Source: Nemertoderma westbladi (taxonomy: Eukaryota; Animalia; Xenacoelomorpha). Taken from it: a stretch of 64,000 nt of DNA. The position numbers and the translations under genes are program-made. The notes beneath the pieces were generated by a model. That model saw nothing but the letters and a program-made list of their open reading frames with translations, did no database searches and was not told where the DNA came from. The stretch covers positions 1-64,000 of the forward strand of contig JAUCBJ010000517.1 of assembly GCA_032718475.1 (NCBI GenBank). Reading direction: 5' to 3'. The stretch's first letter is position 1. The number at the start of each line of letters is the position of its first letter. Shown here in pieces: positions 1,377 to 63,295 of the stretch.

Positions 1377-1395
1377 TAATAATTTATAATCGCAG

Positions 1396-8832: not shown

Positions 8833-8985
8833 GGAGACACTTGGTCTAGTGGTAACAACTTGTGTTTTCTTTGAAGACGGACGAAGCAGGACTGTTTGGC
8901 CATGGGACCTTTAAAGCTGTAGACTAGCTCTACCCAGGCTTTCATCCTTCACTGGTCGATAAATGGGAACCAATGTAACTTGGGA
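8833..8985 (+). mobile_element. Possible tRNA-derived SINE head and core leading into the minisatellite
   Basis: A-box-like TGGTCTAGTGG; core ctttcatccttc..ggtcgataaatggg..acc recalls conserved central domains (Deu/Nin-type) of metazoan SINEs; no clear B-box. Confidence 0.4.
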
Positions 8986-11960
8986 AACAGAGTAGAAGGG
9001 TCTACCGTGGAAGATAACCAACCCATGGTGGTGAACAGGCATTCCTTTAGGAAACAGAGTGGAAGGGTTTACTGCGGAAGATCACAAATGGTGGTGAACA
9101 GGCATTCCTTTAGGAAACAGAGTGGAAGGATTTACAGTGGAAGATAACCAACCCATGGTGGTGAACAGGCATTCCTTTGAGAAACAGAGTGGAAGGGTTT
9201 ACAGTGGAAGATAACCAACCCATGGTGGTGAACAGGCATTCCTTTAGGAAACAGAGTGGAAGGGTTTACAGTGGAAGATAGCCCATGGTGGTGAACAGGC
9301 ATTCCTTTAGGAAACAGAGTGGAAGGATTTACAGTGGAAGATAACCAACCCATGGTGGTGAACAGGCATTCCTTTGGGAAACAGAGTGGAAGGGTTTACT
9401 GCGGAAGATCACAAATGGTGGTGAACAGGCATTCCTTTAGGAAACAGAGTGGAAGGGTTTACTGTGGAATATCACCCATGGTGGTGAACAGGCAGTCATT
9501 TGGGAAACGGAGTGGAATGGTTTACTGAGAAAGATCACCCATGGTGGTGAACAGGCAGTCATTTGGGAAACGGAGTGGAATGGTTTACTGTGGAAGATAA
9601 CCAACCCATGGTGGTGAACAGGCATTCGTTTGGGAAACAGAGTGGAAGGGTTTACAGTGGAAGATCACCTATGGTTGTGAACAGGCATTCCTTTGGGAAA
9701 CAGAGTGGAAGGGTTTACATTGGAAGATAACCAACCCATGGTGGTGAACAGGCATTCCTTTGGGAAACAGAGTCGAAGGGTTTACAGTGGAAGATAGCCC
9801 ATGGTGGTGAACAGGCATTCCTTTATGAAACAGAGTAGAAGGGTTTACTGTGGAAGATAACCAACCCATGGTGGTGAACAGGCATTCGTTTGGGAAACAG
9901 AGTGGAAGGGTTTACAGTGGAAGATACCCAACCCATGGTGGTGAACATGCATTCCTTTGGGAAACAGAGTGGAAGGGTTTACAGTGGAAGACAACCAACC
10001 CATGGTGGTGAACAGGCATTCCTTTGGGAAACAGAGTGGAAGGGTTTACTGCGGAAGATCACAAATGGTGGTGAACAGGCATTCCTTTAGGAAACAGAGT
10101 GGAAGGGTTTACTGTGGAATATCACCCATGGTGGTGAACAGGCAGTCATTTGGGAAACGGAGTGGAATGGTTTACTGAGGAAGATCACCCATGGTGGTGA
10201 ACAGGCAGTCATTTGGGAAACGGAGTGGAATGGTTTACTGTGGAAGACAACCAACCCATGGTGGTGAACAGGCATTCCTTTGGGAAACAGAGTGGAAGGG
10301 TTTACTGCGGAAGATCACAAATGGTGGTGAACAGGCATTCCTTTAGGAAACAGAGTGGAAGGGTTTACTGTGGAATATCACCCATGGTGAACAGGCAGTC
10401 ATTTGGGAAACGGAGTGGAATGGTTTACTGAGGAAGATCACCCATGGTGGTGAACAGGCAGTCATTTGGGAAACGGAGTGGAATGGTTTACTGTGGAAGA
10501 TAACCAACCCATGGTGGTGAACAGGCATTCGTTTGGGAAACAGAGTGGAAGGGTTTACAGTGGAAGATCACCTATGGTTGTGAACAGGCATTCCTTTGGG
10601 AAACAGAGTGGAAGGGTTTACATTGGAAGATAACCAACCCATGGTGGTGAACAGGCATTCCTTTGGGAAACAGAGTGGAAGGGTTTACAGTGGAAGATAG
10701 CCCATGGTGGTGAACAGGCATTCCTTTATGAAACAGAGTAGAAGGGTTTACAGTGGAAGATAACCAACCCATGGTGGTGAACAGGCATTCGTTTGGGAAA
10801 CAGAGTGGAAGGGTTTACAGTGGAAGATACCCAACCCATGGTGGTGAACATGCATTCCTTTGGGAAACAGAGTAGAAGGGTTTACAGTGGAAGATAACCA
10901 ACCCATGGTGGTGAACAGGCATTCCTTTAGGAAACAGAGTAGAAGGGTTTACTGTGGAAGATAACCAACCCATGGTGGTGAACAGGCATTCGTTTGGGAA
11001 ACAGAGTGGAAGGGTTTACAGTGGAAGATCACCTATGGTGGTGAACAGGCATTCCTTTAGGAAACAGAGTGGAAGGGTTTACAGTGGAAGATAACCAACC
11101 CATGGTGGTGAACATGCATTCCTTTGGGAAACAGAGTGGAAGGGTTTACAGTGGAAGATAACCAACCCATGGTGGTGAACAGGCATTCCTTTAGGAAACA
11201 GAGTAGAAGGGTTTACTGTGGAAGATAACTAACCCATGGTGGTGAACAGGCATTCCTTTGGGAAACAGAGTGGAAGGGTTTACAGTGGAAGATAGCCCAT
11301 GGTGGTGAACAGGCATTCCTTTAGGAAACAGAGTAGAAGGGTTTACTGTGGAAGATAACCAACCCATGGTGGTGAACAGGCATTCCTTTGGGAAACAGAG
11401 TGGAAGGGTTTACAGTGGAAGATAACCAACCCATGGTGGTGAACAGGCATTCCTTTAGGAAACAGAGTAGAAGGGTTTACTGTGGAAGATAACTAACCCA
11501 TGGTGGTGAACAGGCATTCCTTTAGGAAACAGAGTGGAAGGGTTTACAGTGGAAGATAACCAACCCATGGTGGTGAACAGGCATTCGTTAGGGAAACAGA
11601 GTGGACGGGTTTACAGTGGAAGATCAATCATGGTGGTAAACAGGAATTCATTTAGGAAACAGAGTGGAAGGGTTTACTGTGGAAGATCACCCATGATGGT
11701 GAACAGGCATTCCTTTGGGAAACAGAGTGGAAGGGTTTACAGCGGAAGATAGCCCATGGTGGTGAACAGACATTCCTTTAGGAAACAGAGTAGAAGGGTT
11801 TACTGTGGAAGATAACCAACCCATGGTGGTGAACAGGCATTCGTTTGGGAAACAGAGTGGAAGGGTTTACAGTGGAAGATCAACCATGGTGGTGAACAGG
11901 AATTCATTTAGGAAACAGAGTGGAAAGTTAATGCGGAATATGTTGGTGGTGGACATGCAT
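8980..11960. repeat. ~3-kb minisatellite of 63/67-bp units with higher-order block duplications
   Basis: Unit gggaaacagagtggaagggtttacagtggaagataaccaacccatggtggtgaacaggcattccttt; variant blocks recur at +650 and +903 bp. Confidence 0.95.
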
Positions 11961-12970
11961 TCCATGGCTTACTAAACCTAAACGTTTCTCCCATTTAAAA
12001 TTATTATTTGTCACAGTGGCGGTAAGGTACCAGGCCCTACAATCGCGGCTTAATGTACCTATGATTGTTAACGGCCACTGCCATTATACAGCAGACAATC
12101 AACATAGTGGGCAGCCATTGCAATTGCTAAAACCTGCATAAATTCCTACTGTAGTCTTAAAGCAGATAGATCAGTGCGGAGATATTCCGTAGCGATGACC
12201 ATTATCGACATTACAGTAAGTCAAGTAAGTTAACATATGTTATTCTAAACATTCCGCAGACGCTGTGCTGAAGAGTATTGAAGAACATTGTTGTGTTTGT
12301 TTACTAAGGAACAACTTATGTAGATCTAAGGTACTTTATTAGCTCTACTTGATTTATGATTGAATCATGGTAGTTTGCAACCAAGGTTACGCAGTGAGTG
12401 ACTCCCTCCCAGAGAGCACTGCTACACACAGCAACCATATGTTCGTAACATAGTAACATGTAATAATCACTGTACTTCATTTATTATTACGCAGTACTAA
12501 ATAGAAAAATCTCATAGAATTCTCACATTTTACTTACTAAGTTATAACTAACTATCAAAAATACAGAAATGTATAAATTATGTCAGATTCTTATCCTGCC
12601 GGTTTTGGTGGTTATGGTTGAAGATGTGAGAGGTGACACGGGAGATAATGTTCCAGTGGAATATGGAGACATTTATGGAAAAACAGTGTAAACAATTAAT
12701 TAAGTTAATTTTTATTATTCATTTAATTTCACTTCGTACGTTTGTTCAAATTAAAAATTAATATAAAAAAGTACAAGAAGCACAAAAAAAATATCGCAGT
12801 TATAAAAAACACACGATCACTGATTCTCTTACATTCATTAACCAGCAACAGTGTCAACAGTCTCACATCTTATTCATTAAAATTAATAGATATCTATTTA
12901 TAAATACTGACGGCATTGGTTGGATAAACATTTGTGGAATATTATAGCAATTTTGTTTGTTTTGTTGTAG

Positions 12971-13079: not shown

Positions 13080-14460
13080 GTATTAAGGGGGGGGGGGGGG
13101 GGGGGGGTTGTCGAATTTCGTGAAAAAAACAAGTTTTTTTTTATTATTTCATAAAGACCGAAATTTGACGGATATTTCAAATATTTACGCGGTTTTGCAA
13201 TATCATCTTTAGTTTTCGAGATATTGGGCTTTTTTCACTGCTTGGACTTTTCGTACCGGTACGTAACAAAATTTCAAAATTCCAGTGATGTGTCTAATTA
13301 CGCCAATTTTAATTCTTGTGGAGGTTTTTGATGTCGGTGAATCCGATGGTAACACTTTAATAAATCTGACCTTTTGCAGCACTTGCACTTTTCGCTCTAT
13401 ATCAAAATTTCAAAGTGATGGACAAACAGACAGACACAAAGCCTGGATTCCGCCAAACACAAAAAATCAGAAATTAAATCTCCGCCCCAGAAAATCCCCA
13501 AAACAGATATTTTAGCGAGGCAGCGTGATTTATTATAATTTAAGGACAACTAGCAGACAGACAGGCTGACAAACAGCCTTGATTCCACCAAAAATAAAAA
13601 TTGACATCGGGAATCAAATCTCCCCCCAGTACACCCCCATAACTGAAAGTTTAGATAGGCGGTGTGATTTATTATAATTAGACGGACAACTAAAATACAG
13701 ACAGACAGACAGCATAGATTCCACCAAACATAAAAATTGACATCGGAAATGAAAGTTCGTTTATCATCATACTTTCTGTCGGACATTATTTAACTAACAT
13801 TCTTTTATATTACAGTTTGCGCGGGAAGGTTCAAAAAATGACAGTGTGTTATTCTCATTTACTCCTATTTCATTTTGTGGTCACTTTTAGTCACTAAAAA
13901 TGTATCTCCTCCTTTAATCTTTATCCGATTTGCTTAATTTTTTTTTCGTTTGAAAGCCCAGTCTCTCCTGAACAGATTCCTTAGATTAATTTCTGAAATT
14001 CGCTCTACGTAGTTCTCGAGAAAAGTTAGAATAAAGCCTGTGTATTCAATAAAAATGAAAATTTCACGACTTCATGTCACAAAAAGTGCAATAAAATAAT
14101 TTTGAAAAAGAAATTCAAAAATTTATCTAGGGATTCTATAAAGGGATAGTCAGTGCACCTACTCACCAATTTACAGAACAGACTCAAAATTGTAGGAAGA
14201 TTGTTAATTTAAGAACGGACCAATCAAAATTTCGTGAAATTGGCCATTAGTCAATCAGAAGCGAGTATTTTAGGTGTGTGGCCACGGAAATGGAAAGCCC
14301 GCCCAATTACCTTACAGTAAGGATAATGCGTTATTTAATAATACATAAAATATAGGCTTAGTTATGGTGGCCCAGAACGGCCAAGAAACTTTTTAAATGT
14401 GAAAGTGTACTTTTCAGTGCTAAAGTGTTCTTTTCAGTGTGAAAATTATCTTTTCATTGT

Positions 14461-14832
14461 GAAAGTGTAAATTTGAAAGTGCGAAAGTGTAAATTTGAAA
14501 GTGCGAAAGTGTAAATTTGAAAGTGCGAAAGTGTAAATTTGAAAGTGCGAAAGTGTAAATTTGAAAGTGCGAAAGTGTAAATTTGAAAGTGCGAAAGTGT
14601 AAATTTGAAAGTGCGAAAGTGTAAATTTGAAAGTGCGAAAGTGTAAATTTGAAAGTGCGAAAGTGTAAATTTGAAAGTGCGAAAGTGTAAATTTGAAAGT
14701 GTAAATTGGAAAGTGGGAAAGTGTAAATTTGAAAGTGAGAAAGTGTAAATTTGAAGGTGAGAAAGTGTAAATTTGAAATTGAGAAAGTGTAAATTTGAAA
14801 GTGTAAATTTGAAAGTGGGAAAGTGTAAATTT
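14461..14832. repeat. 22-bp tandem array inside the left TIR; inverted array at ~25694-25890 and a third at ~24859-24972
   Basis: Unit gaaagtgtaaatttgaaagtgc. Confidence 0.95.
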
Positions 14833-15060
14833 AAATACGAATTATGGCGGGAAATTTAAATTCAGATGGGTAGGCCAGACCATGTGCTGTAAAGTATACA
14901 TAGAGAGGCCTATCCACTGTACCGGTACATTTGGCAGTTAGTAATACAGAACATAAAACAGTAATATTATTGACATGTCAGCAGAATGCATCCGTACTAA
15001 TGCGCTGTTGTGGTCTATTCTGTCATGGTTACCAGTGGGATTGAATAGAGCGATAAAGTT

Positions 15061-16948
15061 CACAAGTCCCTAAAAGGTGCCACCCAGCTCCATAGCGCGG
15101 GAAATTCAAATGATTGTAAGACATGTAATTTGTACTGGAAAGGGTGACAGACAAGGTGTACTAAATTTATTATTACTAAAATTATGTACTAAGTTATTTA
15201 GTACACCTTGGTGGCAGATCAGATCTGCCACCTATATTTTGGCGGTAAATTCAAATCTGTTTTAACATTGAATATATGAATAGAGTATGACTAATGTAAT
15301 TCATTGAATCAGAATAAATTATTTCTTATCGGTTTAACTCACTCATCCGTTATTGTTGTTGTTTTATCTATTCTGGGACTTCCAGCAGCACGTGAATAAA
15401 TAAACCAGCACGTTAACTAGTCTGGGGCTTCGAGCAGCACGTGAACAACTAAGCTGACTGGTTAACTAGTCTGGGACTTCGAGCAGCACGTGAACAACTA
15501 AGCTGACTGGTTAACTAGTCCGGGACTTCGAGCAGCACGTGAACAACTAAGCTGACTGGTTAACTAGTCTGGGGCTTCGAGCAGCACGTGAACAACTAAG
15601 CTGACTGGTTAACTAGTCTGGGACTTCGAGCAGCACGTGAACAACTAAGCTGATTGGTTATCTAGTCTGGGGCTTCGAGCAGCACGTGAACAACTAAGCA
15701 GACTGGTTAACTGGTCTGGGACTTCGAGCAGCACGTGAACAACTAAGCTGACTGGTTAACTAGTCCGGGACTTCGAGCACCACGTGAACAACTAAGCTGA
15801 CTGGTTAACTAGTCCGGGACTTCGAGCACCACGTGAACAACTAAGCTGACTGGTTAACTAGTCTGGGGGTTCGAGCACCACGTGAACAACTAAGCTGACT
15901 GGTTAACTAGTCCGGGACTTCGAGCAGCACGAGAACAACTAAGCTGACTGGTTAACTAAACTTGGGCTTCGAGCAGTACGAGACCATTTGAATTTGAATT
16001 GATATATTTTTGGCGGTTAATGCTAATTACAGAATTATAATATATTAATTACCATTACAAACTGTACACAGTGTGCTGCAGTATGTACATGGGTACGTAC
16101 TAAAAGGTCAAGGAGCTAGAGCAGTAGACTTCATACTGTAAACTTCTTACTGTAGTGTAGTAGCTACTGCTACTGCATGTGCAGTAGGCCTACAGACATA
16201 TTATCTTATTTAGGTCTACTAAGAAATATTGTGTAGTGTAATTTCATAAGAAATATATACAGCTGTACAGCAGGGAATTGATAGTAAAATATATCGCAGG
16301 TAGGCGGCCTACTGTAATAGCAATGTGTATAATGCCTCTGCCTATACTGCTATATTTGTCTATGACATATAATATGATAAAATATTATTATGAATGAACA
16401 TTATTATTCTTAGTAACTCGTGACAAAATACAATGCGCTACTAACTCAGAAACTGTAATCCTAAATGCGGAACTTAAACCGAAACAGGGAATAGTACTAG
16501 TACAATGTGGACTTCGTAGTGACACATTTGGCAGTCAGTGCGATATAATTTCTCATGTACAAGCAAATCACGGTATTGCATGTTCAGTACAAACGGTAAT
16601 TCGGTTATTCAACAATTAACAAACGGTTATTCAACGTCCATGTTTAGTTATTAGCGTGACGGTAATACAAATTACGCAAAGTGAACCTTTACTACATTCA
16701 CAATTTTCTATTCATTCACTAACTATAACGAAAATTGAACGTGCATTTAATCCATGGTACGTTCAGTTAACTATATTTGCTACCTGGGTTACTCTATTCA
16801 TATATTCAATGTTAAAACAGATTTGAATTTACCGCCAAAATATAGGTGGCAGATCTGATCTGCACCCTTTCCAGTACAAATTGCATGTCTTTCAATCATT
16901 TGAATTTCCCGCGCTATGGAGCAGGGTGGCACCTTTTAGGGACTTGTG
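15061..16948. mobile_element. Non-autonomous TIR element (CAC...GTG ends) inserted near the transposase 3' end
   Basis: 15061-15146 and 15214-15287 are inverted copies of 16863-16948 and 16790-16863; TSD not clear. Confidence 0.8.
15372..15982. repeat. 49-bp tandem repeat (~12 copies)
   Basis: Unit ctagtctgggacttcgagcagcacgtgaacaactaagctgactggttaa. Confidence 0.95.
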
Positions 16949-17535
16949 TAATGATTCTACCCAAGTTATGGTTTTCTCAAGTGTAAGCAGGTCCGCACAT
17001 AGTCACAATATTCATACATATCTTCATCAGTAGGCCTAGGTACTGGTATTTGATTCAAAGAAGTACGCACAGTTTGGAGCGTATCATTATTGACACGAAG
17101 GTTAAGGTTCTCCTCACCGCCGTTACAGGAAGGATTGAAATAGTTACATACAGGCTTCCCTGATATTGTGTTAAAGCGCGACTTACGAATATATGATTAT
17201 TACAGTCCTCGGCAATATCATCGAGTTCTAACTGTATGGTATCAGCAAAACAGTACCACATAATAGGTCTATGTCTACTATTATTTGTGTCGTATTCATT
17301 ACTATCAATTAATTCATTAAAAAATGTAATCCACCACTGAGTCCAAGCCTTCCTCAAGTAGGCCCACCACGATTTTATTCGCTGATTGTGGGGTGAACCA
17401 ACGTATTTATGGGCCCCCCAATGATTGACGAAAGAAACATTGAGCCCCGGCCATAACCCCATTCTCAGTGCCCCGAGCCGTATCAAGTCTCAATGGACAT
17501 CCATGTAATACTACAGTAGGTAAATAATCTCATAT
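16949..17535 (-). pseudogene. IS3EU transposase, 3' half (frameshifted); the last codons appear to lie at 15060-15029
   Basis: GCPLRLDTARGTENGVMA..AHKYVGSPHNQRIKSWWAYLRK..WWITFF..DEDMYEYCDY..WVESL; positions expected to be catalytic D and E read A and K. Confidence 0.88.
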
Positions 17536-19154
17536 CAATAATATCATTTAAGGAGGTACTGTTTCTAACATTAGTGTTTCGAGAAATCACTGGGCAATAG
17601 TTAGCAATTTGTCCAAGGAGTAGTTCCAAAACAGCAACTTTTTGGGCTGCTGTTTGTCGCTGAGCTGGAAGTACTTCATTCTACCACTTAACCACCCCAG
17701 CGGAGGGAACGGAGTGACCGGAGCGCCAGTACTTTCTTTCATTATTATGAAGTAATAAGGGCGGTGGGTGGGGTAGGTGGTGAACACTATTTATAGGGTG
17801 GAGGGAGGGTCTAGTATATTACTTTAGGATATTTGATATCTTTGCAATATAGTTTAGCTGCCTCAGTCTTATTTGTAATATGTTATACATTATACCAAAT
17901 TATATCAAGTTTTAACATACTACATTGTCTACCTGTAGGAGAAATATACAATGTAGGGCTCATAATATATTTATAAATAGATTTAGTATATTTACATTGT
18001 ATAACAGAGTAAATTGATACTATTACGGTATTATACTAAAGACGCCGCTTTGATATATCTGATCAAATGGCAATTTCTTGTATATTATCTATTTCAGTAT
18101 CTTGGGTATATCATTCAATTTCTAAAACTATAATAATAAACATTTACTTCACTTCTTGTTTACTCGCATGGATATATTGATATAAAACACTTCAGTATAA
18201 TATCTTATAGGGCCAAACGCAGATTAATCAGAATAATATGTTTAATTATTATTACAATTGGCACATTGAAGTAAGTAGTACATGAGTTTGATAAAATAAT
18301 TATGAATCTGTATCTTATTCTACTTTGTCTATATGGTTATGTTATATAATAATGTTACTTTATCACTTTAGTTTAAACCGATCTCCTTTACTATTACTTA
18401 CTACTTATACTACTACTACTACTACTATTACTACTATTGCTACTGACTACTACAGAGTTATATATTATAAGAGGAGGGGGTTCGTGATTATTAGTTATTA
18501 TACAAGTGCCCCTCGGCTATAGAGAGTCCACCCTCGGTTGCTTACTGGATCAAGCACTTAAGATAAATTAAAGATACAAGTTAAATTAAGTTATCAGAGA
18601 ACGTGAGCTAGAAACACCGGCATGAGGCATGAATAAGATGATTAATAAGATTATAGGTCCTCAATATTTGCGCCCATCAATGTTTGTTTCCCTCAATATG
18701 TTTGTGTTTTGAACTGAATATTGCGGGGCATCCCCCCCCCCCCCCCCCCCCCTTAGGGATATATGCATATTATACATAATTATACATATTTATTTTAGTT
18801 AAATTAACCATCTGAATAAACACTTCAAATACTGCGTACTGCAGGTCTACTGTATGTTTTGAATGACTACAATTAGAGCTAAACACCTTAAAAAAAATAA
18901 AATAAATTAAATAAAATATCATGAATATACTGTATAAGAAAAAAATTGGACCGGGGTTTTAGGACCGGGTTTTAGACATTTTCACTTTAGAACAGAACAA
19001 ACTATTTATTACTTTTTTTAAATTCGTATTTATATCAATGAACTAAATGAACACTTAACAAAGATCGTCTACAGTTCTACATAGGTATAGCATATACATC
19101 AGCTGATTCATCCAATACTTTTGGATCACTTTACCATCATCTTGGACTTGCGCA

Positions 19155-20189
19155 CTAAAGGCATAGCGCTTCAAGCCACTCCCGTTGCTTCTCTTTATTA
19201 TGAAACCAGATGCGGCAGCCTTCGGGTTGGTGGTCCGTCTGTTTAACCTCGATAGATGGCAGATAGAACTTCGAATCCTTTGTGGAATTTTTTGTGATTT
19301 TTATGCCAAATCGGCATCGATTTTCGTGTAGAACTTCTTCAAATGAATACTTTTCCAGATTGAAGACTTTCTCTACATTTCTTAATTTATTTGTCGTGTT
19401 CTCCTCTTTTGGCAGACATATGAGGTTCCGAAAGCGTAGCAATATCAATTCCGGAGGTTCATTTTCAAGGTTTAATTGTCCCCAAAACGATTTGTCGTTT
19501 TCCATATCCGGACATTTGTATATTATTCCTTCTAATTCAAACTTCCTGATAGTTATTGTAGATCCACAATATCTTTTGAAATTTTCCATAGTCCTCAACA
19601 GATGAAAGATATCATTATTTGATGCTTGTATGATCATTCGGTTTCTTGGATCGTGGATATTTTCGCCAAAATACATTATCATTCCCATTCCAGCTTTCAT
19701 TTTTTCATATTCGTGATCTATCAACTTCATTTGATCCCATCTGAATTGATTTTCTGAATCATAATTTATTAAACAAAATTCATACTGAAGTTGATTTGAA
19801 AAATAAATTGCTCGCAAACTGTCCCATCTCGAATCTGACGTTAACCAATTAACGAATTCTATTTTTTCAGTAAAGCTGTATATCGCAACGGCTTTATTTT
19901 TTCTAAATTTTTTGTTTGACAGTAAATTCGAGCGATCCAACTTTTTATATCCAGGCCTGTTAATCAACGATTCATATAATGAGTAATCAATAACCCAAAT
20001 ACTTCGGCTTTCTAAGTGGTCCTCCTTAAGAAGATGCTTGAATAGCATTTCTTCTCGTGAACGTTTAGTTAGAGAATTGGTTTTATCAGTGTCCGACTCG
20101 AATACGATATCCGATCCAATCGAACTCTGTGATGGGGAATAAAAATCAGACAATGTCGGTGCTGGTGTGGAAATCGATTCTTTATACAT
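19155..20189 (-). CDS. Intronless 344-aa protein of unknown function; C-terminal region PH-domain-like
   Basis: Long uninterrupted ORF in AT-rich DNA. Ends WFHNKEKQREWLEAL (PH terminal-helix pattern); CPDM..LLRFRNLICLPK..FGIKI loosely recalls Grb7/MRL-family PH domains. Confidence 0.6.
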   Translation of the reverse strand: MYKESISTPAPTLSDFYSPSQSSIGSDIVFESDTDKTNSLTKRSREEMLFKHLLKEDHLESRSIWVIDYSLYESLINRPGYKKLDRSNLLSNKKFRKNKAVAIYSFTEKIEFVNWLTSDSRWDSLRAIYFSNQLQYEFCLINYDSENQFRWDQMKLIDHEYEKMKAGMGMIMYFGENIHDPRNRMIIQASNNDIFHLLRTMENFKRYCGSTITIRKFELEGIIYKCPDMENDKSFWGQLNLENEPPELILLRFRNLICLPKEENTTNKLRNVEKVFNLEKYSFEEVLHENRCRFGIKITKNSTKDSKFYLPSIEVKQTDHQPEGCRIWFHNKEKQREWLEALCL

Positions 20190-20564
20190 ACCGTCAATTG
20201 TTTACTATATTATTAGTTTCAGTTTTATTTCAAGTTTAATATTGTATGTACGTAGTACATGTACACACATGTTACAGAGTATTTACTATAGGCCTACTAC
20301 ATACAGTATTACGTTGTTCATAATACAGTACTGTATAATTTATTTTATTTAAATAATTCATAAAATGAATTGTTCTTATTGAAAGATTATTATCTCGGTC
20401 ACTTTAAGACCGAGACCGGGTTTTAGTCATTTCATTTTTGGGACCGCGAGTTTATGGACCGGGTTTTAGGAATTATTGGGACCGGGTTTTAGTAATTTTC
20501 ACGTGGACCAGGCAAAAATTGGACCGACTGGGATTTAGGTTCAGTGGACCGAGACCGGGACCGA

Positions 20565-21507
20565 TGTAACAGGAAAATATGCCCCCCCGGGAAATGTGCC
20601 CGGGGGGGCATATTTTCCTAGGAAAAAATGCCCCCCCGGGCAAATTTCCCTAGGAAAAAATGCCCCCCCTTAGGAAATTATGCCTCCCCTGAATTATACA
20701 ATAAACAAAACTTATTATTACTACTAAAACTTACAAAAATTATACAAAACAATAAACAGTCATTTTACCAAATGAAGGAAAGGAGCAGGTTACAGAGGCA
20801 GGCCTTTCTAACCAAAACAATAAACGATCATTTAACTAATTGAGGGAAAGGAGCAGGTTACAGAGGCGGGATTTTCTAACCAAAACAATAAACAGTCACT
20901 TTAGCAAATCAGGGAAAGGAGCAGGTTACAGAGACGGGATTTTCTAACCAAAACAATAAACGATAACATTACCAATTGAGAGAAAGGAGCAGGTTACAGA
21001 GGCGGGATTTTCTAACCAAAACAATAAACAATCACTTTACCAAATCAGGGAAAGGAGCAGGTTACAGACTTAAAAAAGCTTGGCTGCTTGGAGCTGCTCG
21101 GCGCCCACACAACACCACACACTCGCACTGCTGTTATCAGGTTATACCACGTACTTACTACAGTAGCCTACTGACTTAGATACTTCAGTATGCTGTTCTA
21201 CATCCCTTACTGCCTTACCTGCTTACCTACCGGCAGACCGGTAGGCCTACCGTACTATTCTTCCAACTATTACAAGTTCTGCAGTTGGTAGATTAAAAGT
21301 GGCTACCAGCAGACCGGTATCGTACCAGTTTTCAGACTTTTGAGGGGGGCTAATTTTCGTAAGGCTGTAAGGGGAGGCATTATTTCCTAAGGAGAAAATA
21401 CCCCCCCGGGCTAAATTTCCTAGGAAAAATTGCCCGGGGGGACATAATATCCTAGGAAATAATGCCCCGGGGGGCATATTATAGGGGGGGCTGATTTCCT
21501 TGTGACA
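20565..21507. mobile_element. Ginger1-like MITE
   Basis: TGTAACAGGAAA and TTTCCTTGTGACA termini, flanks CCGA and CCGG (Ginger1 targets CCGG/CCGT), ~130-bp imperfect G/C-run TIRs, internal ~68-bp tandem repeat at ~20745-21068. Confidence 0.75.
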
Positions 21508-21615
21508 CCGGCCCGGGTTTTAGATAGTCCCGTAGTACTGTGGTACTGTAGTAGGCTACCGGTACGACTTCGACATACTGACTGTCTGTCCGTACCGTAG
21601 GTGATTACCGCAACC

Positions 21616-23214
21616 ATGGATATAGTGAATAACGCAGTAGTTATTCCCAACTCGGATGGCCGTATCTTAACATTACAGGAAATATGTTATACAGGTGTCA
21701 CGCGGACATTATCAAAGGTAATTGTAACCGCCGAATATCAGAAAAAATCTCTCGATATTACTGAAGTCTGTCACTGGCTAGCGTTGGCTGCACCCAGACT
21801 TCGTATGGTCATGAGAAAATATATACTGCGTTCCTATCTATTGGCATTTAATCAACTGGAACTTCTCTATAATGAACAACCTCCGCCGCCCGCCCAACCC
21901 TCCCTAATGCCTCGCAACCAACAAGAAATAACTTTGTACTACATTATGGAATCCTATAAAGACATATTCTTTGATCAATGTTTCTTTCCCCTAGATATCA
22001 TAGTTAAACTATGCTATGGTACCGGTATTGGTGAAGTGTTTGGCGAGAAATTTCCTGAAGATTTAATTATCAATCTTTTACGATGGGTCCCATTAGGCCC
22101 AATGTCTCATGGGTTGAGAGAGATGGAGGGGGATACTTGGATATTTGGTAAAGGTCAATTCCCCCAACTCAACACACTAAAGATGAAAACCTTGGCCGTA
22201 AATGATGACACAGTCAATGCTATAGCACAATCCTGTCCCAACCTGGTATCCTTGTGCTCTCCTCCAGTATGCGATGTCACCTCTGCGGGACTTAGTTATC
22301 TTTACCAACTAGGAAGTTTGCGAACTTTAGACTTAAGTGGATGTCGTAAAATGTCAGTAGACGATCTGATATATTTACAGAAAGTATTAGGCCTACGCCG
22401 CCTACCTCGGGTTTCTATCGTTATAGATACAGATATTACAATGAAGCTACTAAAGGGTTTTATTAAACGTGAAATAAATCCATCCGATACGAACTTCAAT
22501 TTCAGTGATTTCACTTTCGCATTGATTGACTATTCTGTTGTTTCAGAACCTACTGAATCTATCTATGGCCATCTTAAAGACGTTCTCTATCACTGCAAAG
22601 ATACAGTTGAGCGTTTAAATTTCGATTTAGGACGGGAATTGCAAATTTATAAGTCTTTTGTTGAAGAGCCACTATTAGCACCGCTACAAGAATTTGGACA
22701 TTTAAAGTTTTTGCGTTTTCGACAACTCGATGTTGATCAATTCATTTCGGATGCTGTTAACAGAGGAGTTACTTTACCTCAGGTCGAACATGTTGTATTG
22801 GAGTGCTGCAAACTTTCATTGGTTGATTTAGATCGGATGTTCCCGAACGTAAAGGAATTATCTCTACTGTTCACCGATGTAGGAAACTTCCTTCCACTAA
22901 TGAACTCTGTAAAGGCCCTTGTTATCGGTTGGGCGACTTACAGGCATCTTATAACAGCCCTGCGTAGCTTCCCTAATTTGAGTAAGCTATGGATTGATTG
23001 CCTGTTTGGTGAACCGGAAGTGACCAAAGAAGAGGTTCTAGTCGATCTTTATGATGTATTTTCTTCGGGAAATCTCGTTGAAGGGCTAAAGAACTTAAAC
23101 ATAAGTTATCGAAATACGCCTCATTTTATGTGTTTCTCGAAAATTGACACTGATCTCTCGGAATTTATTCGTAATACACTTTTGCATCGATGTAAAAACT
23201 TAATGATAGAGTAA
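21616..23214 (+). CDS. Intronless leucine-rich-repeat protein (cysteine-containing FBXL/AMN1-type LRRs) with a putative N-terminal BC-box
   Basis: First ATG at 21616; LTLQEICYTGV (BC-box-like); VNDDTVNAIAQSCPNLVSL..DVTSAGLSYL..LRTLDLSGC; FPNVKELSL; FPNLSKLWI. Confidence 0.75.
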   Translation: MDIVNNAVVIPNSDGRILTLQEICYTGVTRTLSKVIVTAEYQKKSLDITEVCHWLALAAPRLRMVMRKYILRSYLLAFNQLELLYNEQPPPPAQPSLMPRNQQEITLYYIMESYKDIFFDQCFFPLDIIVKLCYGTGIGEVFGEKFPEDLIINLLRWVPLGPMSHGLREMEGDTWIFGKGQFPQLNTLKMKTLAVNDDTVNAIAQSCPNLVSLCSPPVCDVTSAGLSYLYQLGSLRTLDLSGCRKMSVDDLIYLQKVLGLRRLPRVSIVIDTDITMKLLKGFIKREINPSDTNFNFSDFTFALIDYSVVSEPTESIYGHLKDVLYHCKDTVERLNFDLGRELQIYKSFVEEPLLAPLQEFGHLKFLRFRQLDVDQFISDAVNRGVTLPQVEHVVLECCKLSLVDLDRMFPNVKELSLLFTDVGNFLPLMNSVKALVIGWATYRHLITALRSFPNLSKLWIDCLFGEPEVTKEEVLVDLYDVFSSGNLVEGLKNLNISYRNTPHFMCFSKIDTDLSEFIRNTLLHRCKNLMIE

Positions 23215-23293
23215 TGATCTTTTAATGGTATGAGGAGCTACCAAAACTAACTATCTTCATTATTTGAAATTTAACTCAATATTTGATAAAATC

Positions 23294-23569
23294 GCCCGTG
23301 AAGAATACCAGGTTTTCACTTTTATGTCGAATTAAAATTTTATTTGAATTTTATATATGATGAATTTGTATTTTTTTTTTAATTTATCCTTATTAAGTAT
23401 TTTATTGTGCGTTTATTGTTTTAATTCGCTTATTGTAACTTTGGTTATAGATTCAGCTCTTCTGTAATCTGGGTTCTTTGTGAAAACCTGATATTTTTCA
23501 CATGTGGATGGGGGTAAACTGCAAGGTGAAATATAAAGCAGAAAGTCTGGTCTACTACAACACATGGGC
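23294..23569. mobile_element. ~280-bp MITE, copy 1
   Basis: Homologous along its length to 48932-49208. Confidence 0.8.
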
Positions 23570-23638
23570 CGATTCAATTAATTGACTATTTGCTTCCTTA
23601 ATGTTTCTATAATCTTTAATCCTCTAATGTCTATAATT

Positions 23639-24603
23639 AACTAGAAAGCCAGCAAGCTGGCTGGAAGGAGCCCGGGGGAAGAATCATAGCCAAGACTATT
23701 ACAAATGAACAATGTCAGTCACAGCGGTAAGTAAACTAAACAATTGTCTAAACTGTAAGGCGTGTGATGCTAGCTGACTTTGTGGCTCGTCCCACATAAT
23801 AAAAAATGAAACTTTGCTATGACAACACACCCGGTTCTTTTAAATTTGCGTGATTTGAGTTTTATGCTCGCACCACTATTTGTAAGAAATGTTAAAACTT
23901 ATCTTACAGTATGCCAATGTTGTAATGGTATTAAAATATAATAATTAAATTTATTTACACTATTAATGCTTCAGCTAAAAAATGATGCTGATCCTATGTA
24001 ATAAAAAAAATAAGAATATTATTTTTAAGAACCTTCTACATATATCCTATACAAAATAATCAGCCCAAGGATTCGTGGAATAATAATACAATCCTACTGC
24101 AGTGGTATAATTTATTTTGTTTATTGACAACTCAACTATTTTCTTGTCTATCCCTGAGAGCTGATAAAGGATGTGTAGACTCAGCCAGCAGCCAGCAGCA
24201 GGAGGGGTGTAGTCAAGGAATTCTGTCTTGATGGAATTCTATCTCAGGCAGCCCTGCACTCAACTGTTCCTACACAGCTAGCTGCTGCAGCTCAGGCAGG
24301 AGTTGTTACTCTACCATTGCTTTTAATTTCGCGACAAAATAATTTCAAAAAATGAAATATATCGAATACCACACATAGAATCGATCTGATATTTTGTAAC
24401 GCGATTATGAACCAACAAAGCAATTTTGACCCATTGAAACCAACCACCAATCCACCAAAAATTTCATCAAAATCACGAGGCAGGAAGTGCCTGAACCTAG
24501 ATATTTATCAGTTAGTCAGTCAGTGTTATATATCCTGAGATTTTTACAGTAAGTATCCTGCAGATTTTTACAGTAAGTATCCCGCTGTCGAGCGGGCTCC
24601 TAA
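23639..24603. mobile_element. Helentron/DINE-like non-autonomous element (tentative)
   Basis: aactagaaag..aggagcccg start; end cccgctgtcgagcggg hairpin plus cgggctcct subterminal IR; gtca microsatellite. Confidence 0.45.
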
Positions 24604-24994
24604 TTAATCGTGCTGTAATTTTATCACATTATATTTATGTAACATTGTAATTGTGAGTTGAATATAGTAATTGTAATTGAACCACGAAGTAAGGTTAACC
24701 TTAGCGTGGCGGTTCTAGGGTTCTTATTGATACACAGAATTAGTATGTCTAATACGGTGGCCCAGACTGCCAGAACGGCCAAGAAACTTTTTAAATGTGA
24801 AAGTGTACTTTTCAGTGCTAAAGTGTTCTTTTCAGTGTGAAAATTATCTTTTCATTGTGAAAGTGTAAATTTGAAAGTGCTAAAGTGTAAATTTGAAAGT
24901 GTAAATTTGAAAGTGCGAAAGTGTAAATTTGAAAGTGTAAATTTGAAAGTGGGAAAGTGTAAATTTGAAAGTGTCGAAGGTTTCGAAGGATGTG

Positions 24995-25494
24995 ACTTTG
25001 CTGGGTACGGCAAACCTTCAACCATAATACAAATCGGGATCACCCATCTAATACACCCATGTCTTGGGAACCCATATGGTTTCAACTTGTCGTACCCATC
25101 TGTATGCCATGCTGCATTCGGACCACGGTTGGAATACATCCTTCGTTTAAGTTTCCGTTTTTGGCGTAATGCAGTAGCTTCTGGGTTCAAGAGTTTTAGC
25201 AGTTGTTGTACAGTAGAACGCGTTACAGGAAACCCTTTCTTATTAAGATAGCGCCACATATGACGGTAACCCCAACTGGACCCCGAACCACGAATAATGT
25301 TTCTCATCACTGCTTTGATCTGGTCAATGTCAATGTTACGGTTTCTGCGTACTAAATGTAAGTCTTTAAGACGTCTTCTTATCGTACGTGCACTGATTTG
25401 GACATTTTCTCTAACCCGCATAATCTTTACAATCTCCACATGTCAAACCCTGACGGAAATAATTTTTTAGTTTGATTTCGTCATATCCCGCCAT
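24995..25494 (-). pseudogene. IS3EU transposase, 5' half (frameshifted)
   Basis: MAGYDEIKLKNYFRQG..ISARTIRRRL..GYRHMWRYL..RRMYSNRGPNAAWHTDGYDKLKPYGFPRHGCI(DG*SRFVLWLKV). Confidence 0.9.
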
Positions 25495-26019
25495 GACAGA
25501 ATAGACCACAACAGCGCATTAGTACGGATGCATTCTGCTGACATGTCAATAATGCAGTAATATTACTGTTTTATGTTCTGTATTACTAACTGCCAAATGT
25601 ACCGGTACAGTGGATAGGCCTCTATGTATACTTTACAGCACATGGTCTGGCCTACCTATCTGAATTTAAATTTCCCGCCATAATTCGGATTTAAATTTAC
25701 ACTTTCAAATTTACACTTTCTCACTTTCAAATTTACACTTTCTCACTTTCAAATTTACACTTTCGCACTTTCAAATTTACACTTTCTCACTTTCAAATTT
25801 ACACTTTCTCACTTTCAAATTTACACTTTCGCACTTTCAAATTTACACTTTCGCACTTTCAAATTTACTCTTTCAGATTTACACTTTCACAATGAAAAGA
25901 TCATTTTCACACTAAAAAGAACACCTTTGTAGCACTGAAAAGGACACTTTCACATTTCAAAAGTTGCTTGGCCGTTCTGGGCCACCGTACTTAGTGTTTC
26001 TAATTTCATAATTTTCCAG

Positions 26020-26202
26020 ACGGACTGCGATGAATACTTTGAAGATGGTGCGGTTGGTTGTTCTGATCTGGAGGGACATGAAAAGGACCCAGTTTGCACC
26101 GTTCGGGGTGTAACGTACAACAATAAGTGCACCATCTGCCATATGACCCCTCCCATAGAAAAAATCGCACATAACGGCCCGTGTTTGGGAGTAAACCATG
26201 AA
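26020..26202 (+). CDS. Kazal-type protease inhibitor domain exon (phase 0-0), not in the ORF track
   Basis: ttttccag|TDCDEYFEDGAVGCSDLEGHEKDPVCTVRGVTYNNKCTICHMTPPIEKIAHNGPCLGVNHE|gtaagt; six Cys in Kazal spacing. Confidence 0.85.
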
Positions 26203-26924
26203 GTAAGTATAGAGTTTGTTTTCACATACTTTATTGAGAGGGGAATTTGCATTTCATAACTATTTATTACAAAAACAAAGAACAAAAACATTTTCCCCTA
26301 TTATTCCGAGATGTATAATTAGATGAGTGTTAGAGATCGACGTTAAATATAATGCATCAGGGGTCACTTTGATCTTTGATGTAATGATTGTTTTGACTCT
26401 TAGCCCTCTTAGCCTTTTTCACGCGGACGTACATTAGTATTTTGTCTATCGGTTAATGTACCGTCATTTTACTATTGTCCGTATTTGATCATTGTTTCAA
26501 CATTCAGACTGTGGTTATTTTGTTCCGTTGTTTCCCGTTGTTACTTCTATTCTTTTTTTCATTTGCTTGTGGCTATTTACTGGTAATTTTTTATCGCCAA
26601 TTAAATTATAATAATATAATAATAATGCACTTTTATTCAAATATTGAAACATTTATTTACTCTCTCATTTTCTACAGCGTCATAAAAAAGTTTAACTTTA
26701 ATGTCACACTCACACTAATACATTAAGTGAAGCAAGGTACCGGTACCTGTAGGTATACCAGCTATTGTCAAATTTTAGTTTCACATTCCTATATTATTTA
26801 CTGTGCTGTTGTACTGGTCTAGCAGTATTGGAAATAAACACTGTATGGTACCGGTAATATCAGTATGTATATGTATGGTACCGGTAATATCAGTATGTAT
26901 GTATGATTTTATTGTTGCTCGCAG

Positions 26925-27066: not shown

Positions 27067-27171
27067 GGTATGAAGGTATTTTTGTTGTGTCTTCGAAAGT
27101 TTATGTTTACACGAACACTCCAACCATATGGACCATATGTACCATACCATACCATATGTACATATCTACAG

Positions 27172-28722
27172 CCCAGGTAGCACAAATACGTAAATTTACG
27201 GTAAATTTACGTTCATTATTCGTCCAGACGTTCTGGATTTATGTTCATATGACGTTGTATTTCTCCCATAAGATGCTATTGATGCTAAACGTTCAATAGT
27301 TCAAAGTTGGCCGTCAGAAGTACCGTAATATGAACGGGCAATTGAACGTAAAAGAGACCACAGGCAATCTATGTTCAAATGACGTGTTCACTAGACGTTC
27401 ATTTCTGGTGTGTTATAGGTCCATATTAGGTTGAATAAACGTAAAAATTTAACGTGAGACCAACCAATCACTGTTTGTTGGTGCATGTTCTGTGTAGAGA
27501 GGGGAGGGGGGGGGGGGGGGGGGGTTAGCCTACCTTATCCAATCCCTACACCCTATCCTACGGCCCTACACCTACAATACCCTATACATTTAGAGAAGGA
27601 AGCATCAGAGTATATATGAAATTATTTAATCGATAGTGATATAAGAGTATCCATGATATATTATGGTGATGATCCACAAATTCACATTGGATTAGTTAGA
27701 TTTCTGTATTTTATCTTATTTCCAGCCAAAATAGATTATTCATATTGATGAATCTTAAAAAAATTAATTAATTTTATGACCTTATAATTGATATTTTAAA
27801 TTTTGTATCTATGCAATAAGGCAATAATACATACAAAAAGCAATTGAAACGTAAGAAAGGTTTATATAATATGATAAATTTGTAAAATAATAAATAATGT
27901 TTTGCGATTAAAAAAATTACCCTACGCATGATAGAAGTTTGAACATTCCAACGCCCATATATCCGATTTATCTCAACAAAATGTAATGGTATTTGGTCAG
28001 TTGGTATCAAAATAGACAAACTTTTGCGGTTTTCTTTGTTTGATATTTTCTTGGTTCAAAAGGCCTAATATATTCTAATAATTTTATTACAATTTTTCGT
28101 GACATAGTACTAGTGTATTAGCTTTAGTAATCAGTAGAATCACCTTTGTCTAATTTTGATGTTATTTGTTGTTTAAAATGTTTAAAAATGCGTCAGCATT
28201 GTATTGGTTATCAATGTTTTGTTGTGTGAATAATTTTTCGATTACTTAAAGTAATTGTTTTGTATTGAGAATGAACCATTAGTCCAGATATAACTAAGCG
28301 GAACCACACCAACCATACAAGGAGTAGGCTAACCAACATAAAAAATAATTGCACAATAATAAATAGTCAGATAATTGTATCACGAACAAGTTTGAACATG
28401 CCATTGACATAACAAGTTAAAGTAAATTATGTTTGAACGTTCATAAACGTTCAAACAACGTACATATTTAGGTACAAAGAAATGAACGCATAACTGGACG
28501 CAATTTGAACGTTCAATATTCGTTTGTTTTGGTTCATATTCAATTTCTTTAAAGTTAGGACGTTAAATTACCTAATGTGAACGTCACAATTTGGTAAATT
28601 ACTCACAACGTCAGCAATTTTTACCTATTTTGAACAATATTTCATTGATGTTCAGATTCGCATAAAAAAAGTACCAAATATGAACGTTCAATTTCTTTCG
28701 TGGACGTCCTGTGCTACCTGGG
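27172..28722. mobile_element. Non-autonomous TIR element (CMC/EnSpm-like) in the Kazal intron
   Basis: TIR CCCAGGTAGCACA / TGTGCTACCTGGG, 2-bp AG on both flanks, many subterminal aacgt/gacgtt motifs. Confidence 0.75.
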
Positions 28723-28867
28723 AGTATGTGGTGTGTATGATCAGTATGAGGTCTAAAATACCAAAAATATAACGAATTACGGTAACATTTTTAGAACAAT
28801 AAGTACCTTTATTTCACTTCCACGTATTTGTCGAAATAATGTTAAATTTTTTACAGTAGGTCTAATG

Positions 28868-29480
28868 TGGGGCGAGACACGTAGTCGGCGAGCCTTGGCA
28901 TACGGTTCATATAGGGCAAATGGGGCATGTCCGTCTGTCTGTCTGTCTGTCCGTCCGTCTGTCTGGTAGATGTTTGAACGCGAATTTCTCGGCATCGCTC
29001 ATTCGGAATTGAACCAAACTTAGTAGGTAAGTAGTAGAGAGAAAGTTTGTAAAGTTTGGTGAAAAATCATGCAGTCTGACGTCAGCTACGACAGATTATG
29101 TGGTTTTTAGAAAATGTTAAATTTCTCGAGAAGGCCTCATTTTCCTGAGCTGAAATTTTGGTGGCCTGTAGAGAATCATGAAGTCTATCTTTTACGAAAT
29201 TGAAAAGTTAAGACATTTAATTGGGGATCCGCTAGAGACTCAGAAGTAATGACATAGGCCTACCGGTACGGTACTGCTGTACAGTGCTGCACTGGTAAGT
29301 ACGAAATTGCAGAATAACAATTTGACACCACCTAGCGGATTAACATATGATTGTATGTCGAATGAATACATTTATAGCATGGGATATTGGGTCCAAACTA
29401 GACATGCCCCATTTGCTCTATATGAACCGTATGCCAAGGCTTGCCGACTACGTGCTGCGCGAAGTCCCCACGAACGTGTA
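28868..29480. mobile_element. Helentron/DINE-1-like element
   Basis: ~50-bp inverted repeat (28881-28931 and 29401-29453), (GTCY)n microsatellite; end motif recurs inverted at ~45223-45250. Confidence 0.65.
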
Positions 29481-59600: not shown

Positions 59601-60109
59601 AACCCACAATAGAATTCCCCGCACTGTAAAATAAACCTACATTACTTCCCCTTTCTTCAATAAACCCACATCAATAAAGTAACATTACGTACTTCCATAA
59701 CTGTGCAATAAGTACTGACTTCCCTTATACTAAATGTAAACCTTTATCGTCTGTGGTCTTATTGTATCGAATCTGCGGGCAAAAATTAATTAAGGTGCTA
59801 AAATCATTTTTTGGATATTTAAGAAACCCTACTTAGCATCAGTGTATCAGTGCTGATCGTTAATAAATTAAACTGCATTAGTGTAGGCTGGGAGGGTGTA
59901 GAACCATATACATACCATATTACCTGAGCCACATCATTCTCACACACCCATAACAACCCCTGAGTTGCTTATATTTATAGAGGCTGTGTCGTGAAAAAAA
60001 TTTCTGACCAACGTCGTTTCCATGATGACGGCTTGCACTGAGGTGCAGTGCTGGCGAACCCAGCGCAACATAGCGCCCCCTACTGGCGGACACAGCAATA
60101 TAGCGCCCC

Positions 60110-63079: not shown

Positions 63080-63295
63080 TATGATGGTACTTTTACCACC
63101 AAATATATTTTATTTTACTTTTTCGCCGGGAAAAAAAGTAAAATCAATGCAATCCTACGGGTTACTTTTTTCCCTAGAGAAAAAATAGCAACTTTTTTCG
63201 CGCGATTTTTGTCTTCGAGCGAAAAAGTAACAATTTAAGAATAAAAAATAATTATTAACATTAAAAATCCATAGCCCTTGAAATAAACGTTGAGA

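What the first reader, a model, noticed from the sequence alone, without database searches (positions are those of the whole stretch)
14357..25995. 11.6-kb IS3EU-type transposon enclosing two intact non-transposase genes
Seen: TAYGG termini, ~500-670-bp inverted ends and a perfect 6-bp TSD CTTAGT bound the unit. The integrase-core transposase is broken by frameshifts and substitutions and split by a ~7.4-kb insert (~17540-24990). That insert holds two uninterrupted, divergent, intronless ORFs (344 aa PH-like; 532 aa BC-box/LRR-like). Known: IS3EU elements have TAY..RTA ends, 6-bp TSDs and this transposase type. Inference: either a cargo-carrying (Pack-type) IS3EU that moves signalling/ubiquitin-ligase-like genes, or a dead element that later received a gene-bearing insert. 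Intact cargo within a decayed transposase implies the cargo is younger or under selection.
Basis: partly seen in the sequence, partly recalled or inferred. Interest (0 to 1): 0.85.

Follow-up and report, generated by a model that had tools for sequence, protein, structure and literature searches.

The report
Dead transposon holding two copied genes
A broken 2.3-kb jumping gene of the known IS3EU type in an animal genome has a 7.5-kb block with two intact genes and a third element end lodged in its transposase, likely pasted in by DNA break repair from beside another copy of the same element, so it is probably a one-off gene duplication of a known kind rather than a transposon that spreads these genes.

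Summary
In detail: TAYGG ends, 666- and 499-nt inverted repeats, a perfect CTTAGT duplication, and two open frames (344 and 532 aa) inside a broken IS3EU-type transposase.

(1) The transposase runs from one repeat's inner edge to the other's, so the native element is about 2.3 kb with no room for a second gene. (2) The 7.5-kb insert ends in a third, left-type element end with a different flank. It has no duplication footprint and replaces about 10 codons. (3) A contig from another sample crosses both breakpoints uninterrupted and keeps the two catalytic residues this copy lost.

Both ORFs have diverged relatives in the read data; window-like copies sit at roughly 1-3 copies. Other genes in the window are also single long ORFs, so 'intronless' means little.

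Best reading (0.55): a dead element that later received DNA copied from beside a sister copy, i.e. a single-copy Pack-TIR. Capture followed by one jump as a unit stays open (0.25). A spreading cargo family is unlikely (0.07). No genome was held. The scan noted other IS3EU cargo elements elsewhere, but not this sequence.

The parts
14357..14362 (+). left copy of 6-bp target site duplication CTTAGT
14363..15028 (+). left terminal inverted repeat (666 nt, starts TATGG, holds a 22-nt tandem array)
15029..15060 (-). likely last ~10 codons and stop of the transposase (LYRSIQSHW*), directly at the inner edge of the left repeat
   Evidence: by eye, continues the W-x-E-A/S-L-x-L-Y ending of 4 relatives; no HMM score on so short a piece
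15061..16948 (.). nested non-autonomous element with its own inverted ends (CAC...GTG) and a 49-nt tandem array; very high depth; superfamily not established
16949..17527 (-). transposase C-half, frameshifted; second and third catalytic residues read A and K here, D and E in contigs of runs X1-X3
17528..24752 (.). inserted genomic segment (7.2 kb): two ORFs amid high-copy repeats
   Evidence: record 18 of X3 skips it; depth profile
17528..17680 (-). 53-codon open stretch at the left edge of the insert; resembles an LTR-retrotransposon gag piece (recalled, not confirmed)
   Evidence: no Pfam or PHROGs hit
19155..20189 (-). ORF1, 344 aa, no detected homologue outside this species; possible C-terminal PH-like domain (lead only)
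20565..21507 (.). Ginger1-like non-autonomous element (TGTNR ends, CCGA/CCGG flanks), depth 10^4-10^6
21616..23214 (+). ORF2, 532 aa, leucine-rich-repeat protein with a BC-box-like motif at residues 19-28
24753..24974 (+). third, truncated terminal repeat, same orientation as the left one and left-type in sequence; its outer flank is the inserted segment, not CTTAGT
24975..25004 (.). 30 nt of junction sequence that the uninterrupted contig does not match (likely filler, part may be altered transposase)
25005..25494 (-). transposase N-half; likely start ATG overlaps the inner edge of the right repeat; HTH plus first catalytic D (WHTDGYDKLK)
25491..25989 (-). right terminal inverted repeat (499 nt, ends CCGTA)
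25990..25995 (+). right copy of target site duplication CTTAGT
26020..26259 (+). Kazal-domain frame behind a splice-acceptor-like TTTCCAG, 30 nt from the element end: likely a host exon, so the element likely lies in an intron

Best explanation
A simple 2.3-kb IS3EU/GingerRoot-type DNA transposon inserted here by transposition and decayed, and a break inside its transposase gene was likely repaired later by pasting in a 7.5-kb stretch copied from beside another left end of the same family, bringing two whole genes along. Shown: the ends, the 6-bp duplication, the colinear broken transposase, the third end with a foreign flank, about 10 missing codons and no duplication at the insert, and uninterrupted copies elsewhere. 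Inferred: the broken end paired with a sister copy, synthesis slipped into that copy's left-end repeat array, ran outward through the end into 7.2 kb of its flank, and was rejoined to the other half of the transposase. Also inferred: capture came after the element had settled here. The unit has no working transposase of its own and would move only if a sister copy supplied one. ORF2 likely works as an LRR substrate receptor of a cullin-type ubiquitin ligase; ORF1's function is unsupported beyond a PH-like lead.
For:: X3 record 18 (1566 nt, depth 86) maps 1-535 to 25538-25005 and 566-1147 to 17527-16947. The 30 nt between are in frame and equal the 10 residues between RT and YL in IS3EU-1_HM1p and in the profile of relatives (positions 193 to 203-204). 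X2 record 16 also runs 42 letters past 25005 on unlike sequence; the longest direct match between the two junction neighbourhoods is 5 nt, so no transposition footprint; the inner end equals the left repeat at 87 of 87 bases after its 8-nt duplication and differs from the right repeat at 6 positions plus a 3-nt gap; its array has the GAAAGTGG unit found in the left array, not the right; one contig in each of X1, X2 and X3 (3 of 3 DNA-like runs, 2 samples) starts 28 nt inside the right end and continues into the flank at single-copy depth (43, 30.5, 15.3) with 10-11 differences in about 630 nt, so the element at this site looks older than those haplotypes (28 nt is under the tool's 31-letter bridging rule); the segment 18990-19251 is near single-copy depth in X2 (20.5) and X3 (12.6, 0 differences in 262 nt), as expected if those samples hold one copy; both frames staying open under the transposase's decay rate has probability 1e-3 to 1e-5, which a late arrival explains without selection. 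Literature (passages): most single-copy animal Pack-TIRs form by transposition-independent gap filling, with internal breakpoints and small lost TE segments (PMC8277862); gene capture in GingerRoot usually goes with transposase loss (PMC6839031).
Against: PMC8277862 reports a cis bias (57% of donors within 15 kb) that is not met here, and a median captured size of 224 bp against 7.5 kb. No listed contig shows this site's element without the insert or with it, so the order of events is not shown. Window-like cargo reaches 2-4 times single-copy depth at some sites, which allows two or three near-identical copies. The tool warns that contig depth is no copy number, and X1's own calibration spans 43-95. 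The BC-box has no Pfam support and only 2 of 150 LRR hits carry such a motif near their N-terminus; both structure predictions failed.
Confidence: 0.55

Rival explanations
1. Capture first, then one jump. At an earlier site the element copied its own left end and left flank into its transposase, and the composite was then moved as a unit into this site by a transposase supplied from a sister copy (FoSTeST-like).
For: The insert has the same orientation as the native left end and is left-type, as a copy from the element's own neighbourhood would be; this fits the cis bias in PMC8277862. The outer ends and duplication are intact. Sister copies with both catalytic residues exist. A contig 1 base different in 271 from ORF2 has depth 413 in X4, a run that behaves like RNA, so selection could have kept the frame open.
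Against: The element at this site appears shared by two other samples, so they should hold donor plus cargo, two copies; the best-resolved segment shows about one in X2 and X3. The cargo would have had to stay open while the transposase beside it gained at least 3 frameshifts; 3 of 14 listed differences are synonymous, near the neutral share, though the list is a biased 40 of 743 rows.
Confidence: 0.25
2. A cargo-carrying IS3EU family that spreads the LRR and PH-like genes around the genome, like multi-copy Pack-MULEs or IS3EU elements with a native second gene.
For: Both ORFs are multi-copy at 85% likeness or more (roughly 2-12 and 2-29 times single-copy depth). Fungal IS3EU families carry TET/JBP and alpha-kinase genes (PMC12730594, passages).
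Against: The longest listed relatives differ by 10-14% and their contigs leave the window sequence outside the coding parts, as old paralogues do. The majority transposase form is uninterrupted. The transposase fills the space between the repeats. None of 23 related transposase loci encodes a match to either ORF.
Confidence: 0.07
3. Assembly chimera: a separate gene-bearing region was joined into the element at the tandem arrays of the ends.
For: One junction lies at a tandem array. No listed contig bridges either insert junction (the table was cut).
Against: Neither junction joins like to like: array to transposase through 30 unmatched nt, and transposase to unrelated DNA. The two junctions return to within 30 nt of each other in the transposase, which a repeat-driven misjoin would not do.
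Confidence: 0.05
4. Composite insertion from alternative (reversed-ends) transposition with re-replication, as in maize Ac: the outer ends come from two elements and the middle is re-replicated flank fused at a break.
For: The product type, transposon ends around duplicated flank with a target duplication, is described in PMC4270019 (abstract and section 6), and a third end inside is expected there.
Against: That model fuses two broken ends at one junction and keeps one element whole. Here there are two junctions that leave and re-enter the same transposase 30 nt apart, and the inner element is cut after 222 nt.
Confidence: 0.05

Closest known systems
IS3EU/GingerRoot superfamily (PMC10045372, passages and two supplement passages; PMC6839031, passages)
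   Same: TA..TA ends (TAYGG..CCRTA as in fungal IS3EU, PMC12730594), 6-bp duplication, integrase-type core with WHxDGYDKLKP, GCIDGxSR, DxGTEN, NQRIE motifs; capture of host DNA with loss of transposase function.
   Different: GingerRoot captures in Selaginella were 84-1654 bp and all fragments; here 7.5 kb with two whole frames and a third element end. Fungal IS3EU keep their extra genes beside a transposase in a conserved order; here the genes sit inside it.
Single-copy animal Pack-TIRs formed by gap filling (PMC8277862, passages)
   Same: Non-TE DNA between TIRs, internal breakpoint, small loss of TE sequence, apparently low copy.
   Different: About 30 times the median size (224 bp), two whole genes, no donor within the window, and the filler includes an end of the same family. 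Microhomology could not be scored without the donor.
Drosophila Ssk-FB4 (multi-copy Pack-TIR, FoSTeST model; PMC8277862, passages)
   Same: Nearly whole gene inside an element with long, internally repetitive TIRs; a de novo insertion at one breakpoint.
   Different: Ssk-FB4 has three sites with different duplications; only one site is seen here.
Maize Ac composite insertions (PMC4270019, abstract and section 6)
   Same: Ends flanking duplicated flank DNA, with an inner element end.
   Different: One fusion junction and a whole Ac there; two junctions within one transposase here.

Membership tests
IS3EU/GingerRoot | TA..TA termini (TAYGG..CCRTA) | tested here: met
   TATGG at 14363, CCGTA at 25989; definition
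IS3EU/GingerRoot | 6-bp target site duplication | tested here: met
   CTTAGT both sides
IS3EU/GingerRoot | integrase-type DDE core with IS3EU motifs, no HHCC domain upstream | tested here: met
   Pfam rva_4 and HTH_21; motifs match IS3EU-1_HM1p, _DR1p and _CGi rows by eye; two catalytic residues altered in this copy, present in other contigs
IS3EU/GingerRoot | transposase groups with Repbase IS3EU entries in a tree | not tested
   no named reference sequences were held as data; comparison was by eye only
Pack-TIR (single-copy, gap filling) | non-TE host sequence between the TIRs of one element | tested here: met
   two ORFs without transposon domains, with paralogues in the read data
Pack-TIR (single-copy, gap filling) | parental (donor) copy elsewhere in the genome | not testable with these tools
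   no genome held; none in the window
Pack-TIR (single-copy, gap filling) | element without the filler exists | tested here: met
   uninterrupted contig in X3, and past one junction in X2; whether it is this site's allele is not known
Multi-copy Pack element (Pack-MULE, Ssk-FB4 type) | same cargo between the same ends at several sites with different duplications | tested here: inconclusive
   window-like cargo at about 0.5-3.8 times single-copy depth; no second site seen; end-motif scans empty
IS3EU with native second gene | extra gene beside an intact transposase in a conserved position | tested here: not met
   transposase spans repeat to repeat and the ORFs interrupt it
BC-box LRR cullin-RING substrate receptors (PRAME/ZYG11-like; family features recalled) | leucine-rich repeats | tested here: met
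BC-box LRR cullin-RING substrate receptors (PRAME/ZYG11-like; family features recalled) | N-terminal BC-box that binds Elongin C | tested here: inconclusive
   TLQEICYTGV at 19-28 fits the recalled pattern; 1.2% of shuffles give one in the first 60 aa; no Pfam box hit; binding not testable
PH domain proteins | PH fold or profile match | tested here: inconclusive
   Atlas 0.82-0.85, no Pfam PH, no PDB hit, model pLDDT 33

The most novel reading that the evidence does not exclude
An IS3EU element copied its own left end and 7.2 kb of flanking DNA into its transposase, then travelled as a three-ended composite, planting a whole, expressed LRR ubiquitin-ligase receptor gene and an orphan PH-like gene in a new intron. 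The inner end would be a preserved record of the previous insertion site, and this route would help expand these two gene families.
Probability: 0.25. Interest if true: 0.55.

Novelty: new member of a known kind. Interest (0 to 1): 0.3.

Why it matters
If the best reading holds, this is an unusually large single-copy Pack-TIR: whole genes rather than the few hundred bases typical in animals. The captured third end makes the mechanism testable, because it names the donor (wherever the 7.2-kb segment abuts a left end). That is a useful case for how repair at transposon copies duplicates genes, but the class is described. It would matter more if the composite were found at a second site, since that would show an IS3EU moving whole host genes in an animal.

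Tried and rejected
Whole genome: none held. Homologue searches for ORF2 and ORF1 found none at near lengths. The profile-free search of representatives gave 247 hits for ORF2, best stretches in the LRR part; 150 were listed. ORF1: no PDB, PHROGs or viral-contig relative. Single-sequence structure predictions failed (pLDDT 33 and 34), so no fold search was run. End-motif scans of metagenome and prokaryote contigs were empty. No RNA holder was listed; X4's RNA-like nature is my inference from depth 559 on TPP2 and 0 on unique non-coding bins. The bin holding 17528-17619 leaves little depth for that stretch in X3, and X4 does not cover 17367-17619; holes in contigs prove nothing, so I did not use this. 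The Kazal frame has no cover in X4, so its splicing is untested. An X4 joint skipping the Ginger-like element (20559 to 21507, depth 546) has only 26 letters on one side and is weak. The short unit 24753-25989 as a separate deletion element was rejected: its left flank is GTCTAA, not CTTAGT. A second transposon around ORF1, suggested by GGACCGGGTTTTAG repeats on both sides, has no inverted partner end in the window. 'Intronless, hence retrocopied' was rejected (no A-tail seen). One identity count (32 of 87) was out of register and is disregarded; the alignment stands. Paper searches; I make no claim that such a structure is absent from print.
Full report
Observation. The unit runs from 14363 to 25989 with CTTAGT on both sides (chance about 3e-4 for a given 6-mer). 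Inverted repeats are 14363-15028 and 25491-25989; each holds a 22-nt array, and their inner parts match at 203 of 205 bases. Both cargo frames are open.

The native element. A profile built from three of 23 related metagenome loci (the three with an open frame of 300 aa or more holding the core motif) plus P0151 maps the transposase colinearly on the minus strand: 25451-25050, 25057-24998, 17529-17425, 17414-17181 and 17199-17047, in shifting frames. The likely start codon overlaps the inner edge of the right repeat, and a short piece at 15029-15060 continues the relatives' C-terminal pattern and ends in a stop at the inner edge of the left repeat (by eye). Removing two inserts leaves about 2.3 kb: repeat, one gene, repeat. 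Motifs match the IS3EU rows of the supplement of PMC10045372 by eye; that paper gives TA..TA ends and 6-bp duplications as family features, and PMC12730594 gives TAYGG..CCRTA. This copy has A and K at the second and third catalytic positions; contigs of X1-X3 read D and E there.

The insert. In run X3 one 1566-nt contig maps its letters 1-535 to 25538-25005 and 566-1147 to 17527-16947. The 30 letters between are in frame and match the 10 residues expected between RT and YL. So the insert is 17528-25004, up to 30 nt of transposase were replaced, and no direct repeat longer than 5 nt links the junctions. It did not arrive by ordinary transposition. Its right end is a third terminal repeat (24753-24974) in the orientation of the left one: identical to it at 87 of 87 bases after an 8-nt duplication, and different from the right one at 6 bases and a 3-nt gap. 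The gap is absent from the high-depth end contigs of X1-X3 and may be private to this copy, so the left-type call rests on the substitutions and on the array units. The flank of this inner end is the cargo segment, not the present left flank, so the segment-to-end junction was made at another insertion site. The segment looks like ordinary genome: depth 10^4-10^6 over 17620-18590, 20536-21507 and 23128-24747, and mostly a few hundred over the two ORFs. It holds a 943-nt element with TGTNR ends and CCGA/CCGG flanks, the Ginger1 pattern of PMC2836005 (passages).

The cargo genes. ORF2 is an LRR protein (Pfam E 9.8e-9; Atlas 0.96 to unnamed arthropod LRR clusters; weak FBXL17/SKP2 hits) with a BC-box-like motif at 19-28 that is suggestive only. 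ORF1 has no homologue in any search; PH is a lead at 0.82-0.85. Both have relatives 10-14% different in the runs, whose contigs leave the window sequence outside the coding parts; some ORF1 relatives carry a stop at codon 289. TPP2 (1247 aa), CWC25 and a JmjC gene in the window are also single long ORFs, and one X2 and one X3 contig of over 4 kb start at TPP2's 3' side, so lack of introns is normal for some genes here.

Copy number, roughly. Single-copy depth from unique flank and TPP2 is 43-95 in X1, 28-30 in X2 and 14-19 in X3. Relative to that: transposase 2-6, one terminal-repeat contig 4-17, ORF1 family 2-12, ORF2 family 2-29, and window-like cargo pieces 0.5-3.8 (from values). The tool warns that these depths are no copy numbers, and only 40 of 743 difference rows and 32 pieces were shown. 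They point to a small element family, mostly uninterrupted where visible, and one to three near-identical cargo copies.

Age and order. All three DNA-like runs (two samples) have a contig that starts 28 nt inside the right end and runs into the flank at single-copy depth with 10-11 differences in about 630 nt. This is just under the tool's bridging rule, but suggests the element has long been at this site. The window's transposase differs from the X3 contig by 17 substitutions and 6 gap letters in 1115 nt. At that rate both ORFs would stay open with probability 1e-3 to 1e-5. Either the cargo came late or it was selected. Only 3 of 14 listed differences in the ORFs are synonymous (a biased list), and X3 holds a 262-nt piece identical to the cargo at single-copy depth, which fits a recent copy. 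In favour of function, X4, which behaves like an RNA library (559 on TPP2, 0 on unique non-coding bins; listed as 'DNA?'), has a contig one base off ORF2 in 271 nt at depth 413 and a 410-nt contig identical to this copy's transposase C-half at depth 27. These cannot be assigned to this locus rather than a donor or another allele.

Mechanism. PMC8277862 (passages) describes this route for most single-copy animal Pack-TIRs, with a median size of 224 bp; PMC6839031 (passages) reports gene fragments of 84-1654 bp in 22 of 77 GingerRoot elements, usually with transposase loss. Capture from the element's own earlier flank followed by one jump (0.25) explains the inner end equally well and fits the reported cis bias, but predicts two copies in samples that share this site. 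A spreading cargo family (0.07), a maize-type composite insertion (0.05; PMC4270019, abstract and section 6) and misassembly (0.05) fit less well. None of the 23 related loci encodes either ORF.

Context. A Kazal domain frame (Pfam E 1.4e-5, above cut-off) begins behind an acceptor-like TTTCCAG 30 nt from the right end; the 3 differences I classified in it are all synonymous. A candidate signal-peptide exon lies at 12569-12625 (by eye). The element likely sits in an intron of a small protease-inhibitor gene.

Verdict. Real and correctly described, but best read as a large new member of a known kind. Interest 0.3. Earlier scan notes report IS3EU elements with a native ligase or kinase gene in other genomes; this case differs in that the genes interrupt the transposase.

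Noticed in passing
window 26020-26259 (+) and 12569-12625 (+): Likely two-exon Kazal-type protease inhibitor gene whose ~13-kb intron holds the element; the element ends 30 nt before the acceptor.
   Followed up: partly
window 31571-35314 (-), 43828-45153 (-), 53086-54687 (+): TPP2 (1247 aa), CWC25-like and JmjC/cupin genes are each one uninterrupted ORF, although such genes are usually intron-rich in animals (recalled). TPP2 is well covered in the RNA-like run X4.
   Followed up: partly
window 27170-28722 and 28866-29476: Two insertions absent from contigs of other samples: the first is skipped in X1, X2 and X3, the second in X3; polymorphic elements are common in this species.
   Followed up: partly
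window 15061-16948: Nested element with CAC...GTG ends and a 49-nt array of 12.6 copies; a 2-bp TT/TA duplication would restore the transposase frame, which suggests an EnSpm/CACTA-like element (inference).
   Followed up: partly
window 18943-18985 and 20400-21530: GGACCGGGTTTTAG-type repeats flank ORF1 on both sides in the same orientation and end in an end-like TTTTAGATAGTCCC; depth there is medium. ORF1 may be a passenger of another repeat.
   Followed up: partly
X3 record 18: The uninterrupted transposase contig runs 419 nt past 16947 on sequence not in the laid stretch, more than the 32 nt plus repeat edge expected; other family copies may have a longer 3' region.
   Followed up: no
window 16957-17366: The RNA-like run X4 holds a contig identical to this decayed transposase half (0 differences in 410 nt).
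   Followed up: no
window 5541-6953 (+) and 37392-38084 (-): Reverse-transcriptase frames of non-LTR retrotransposons (Pfam RVT_1 for the first; second by eye).
   Followed up: no
window 1-1380, 8980-11925, 54663-59601, 63295-64000: Long minisatellite arrays with 57-, 67-, 37- and 37-nt units; the first reads as one open frame.
   Followed up: no
window 20745-21068, 31124-31185, 48315-48384, 48711-48779: The 68-nt unit inside the Ginger-like element recurs as single copies at three other places in the window.
   Followed up: no
L002 2967-6776 (-): The large ORF beside a related intact transposase is a LINE endonuclease/reverse transcriptase, not cargo.
   Followed up: yes
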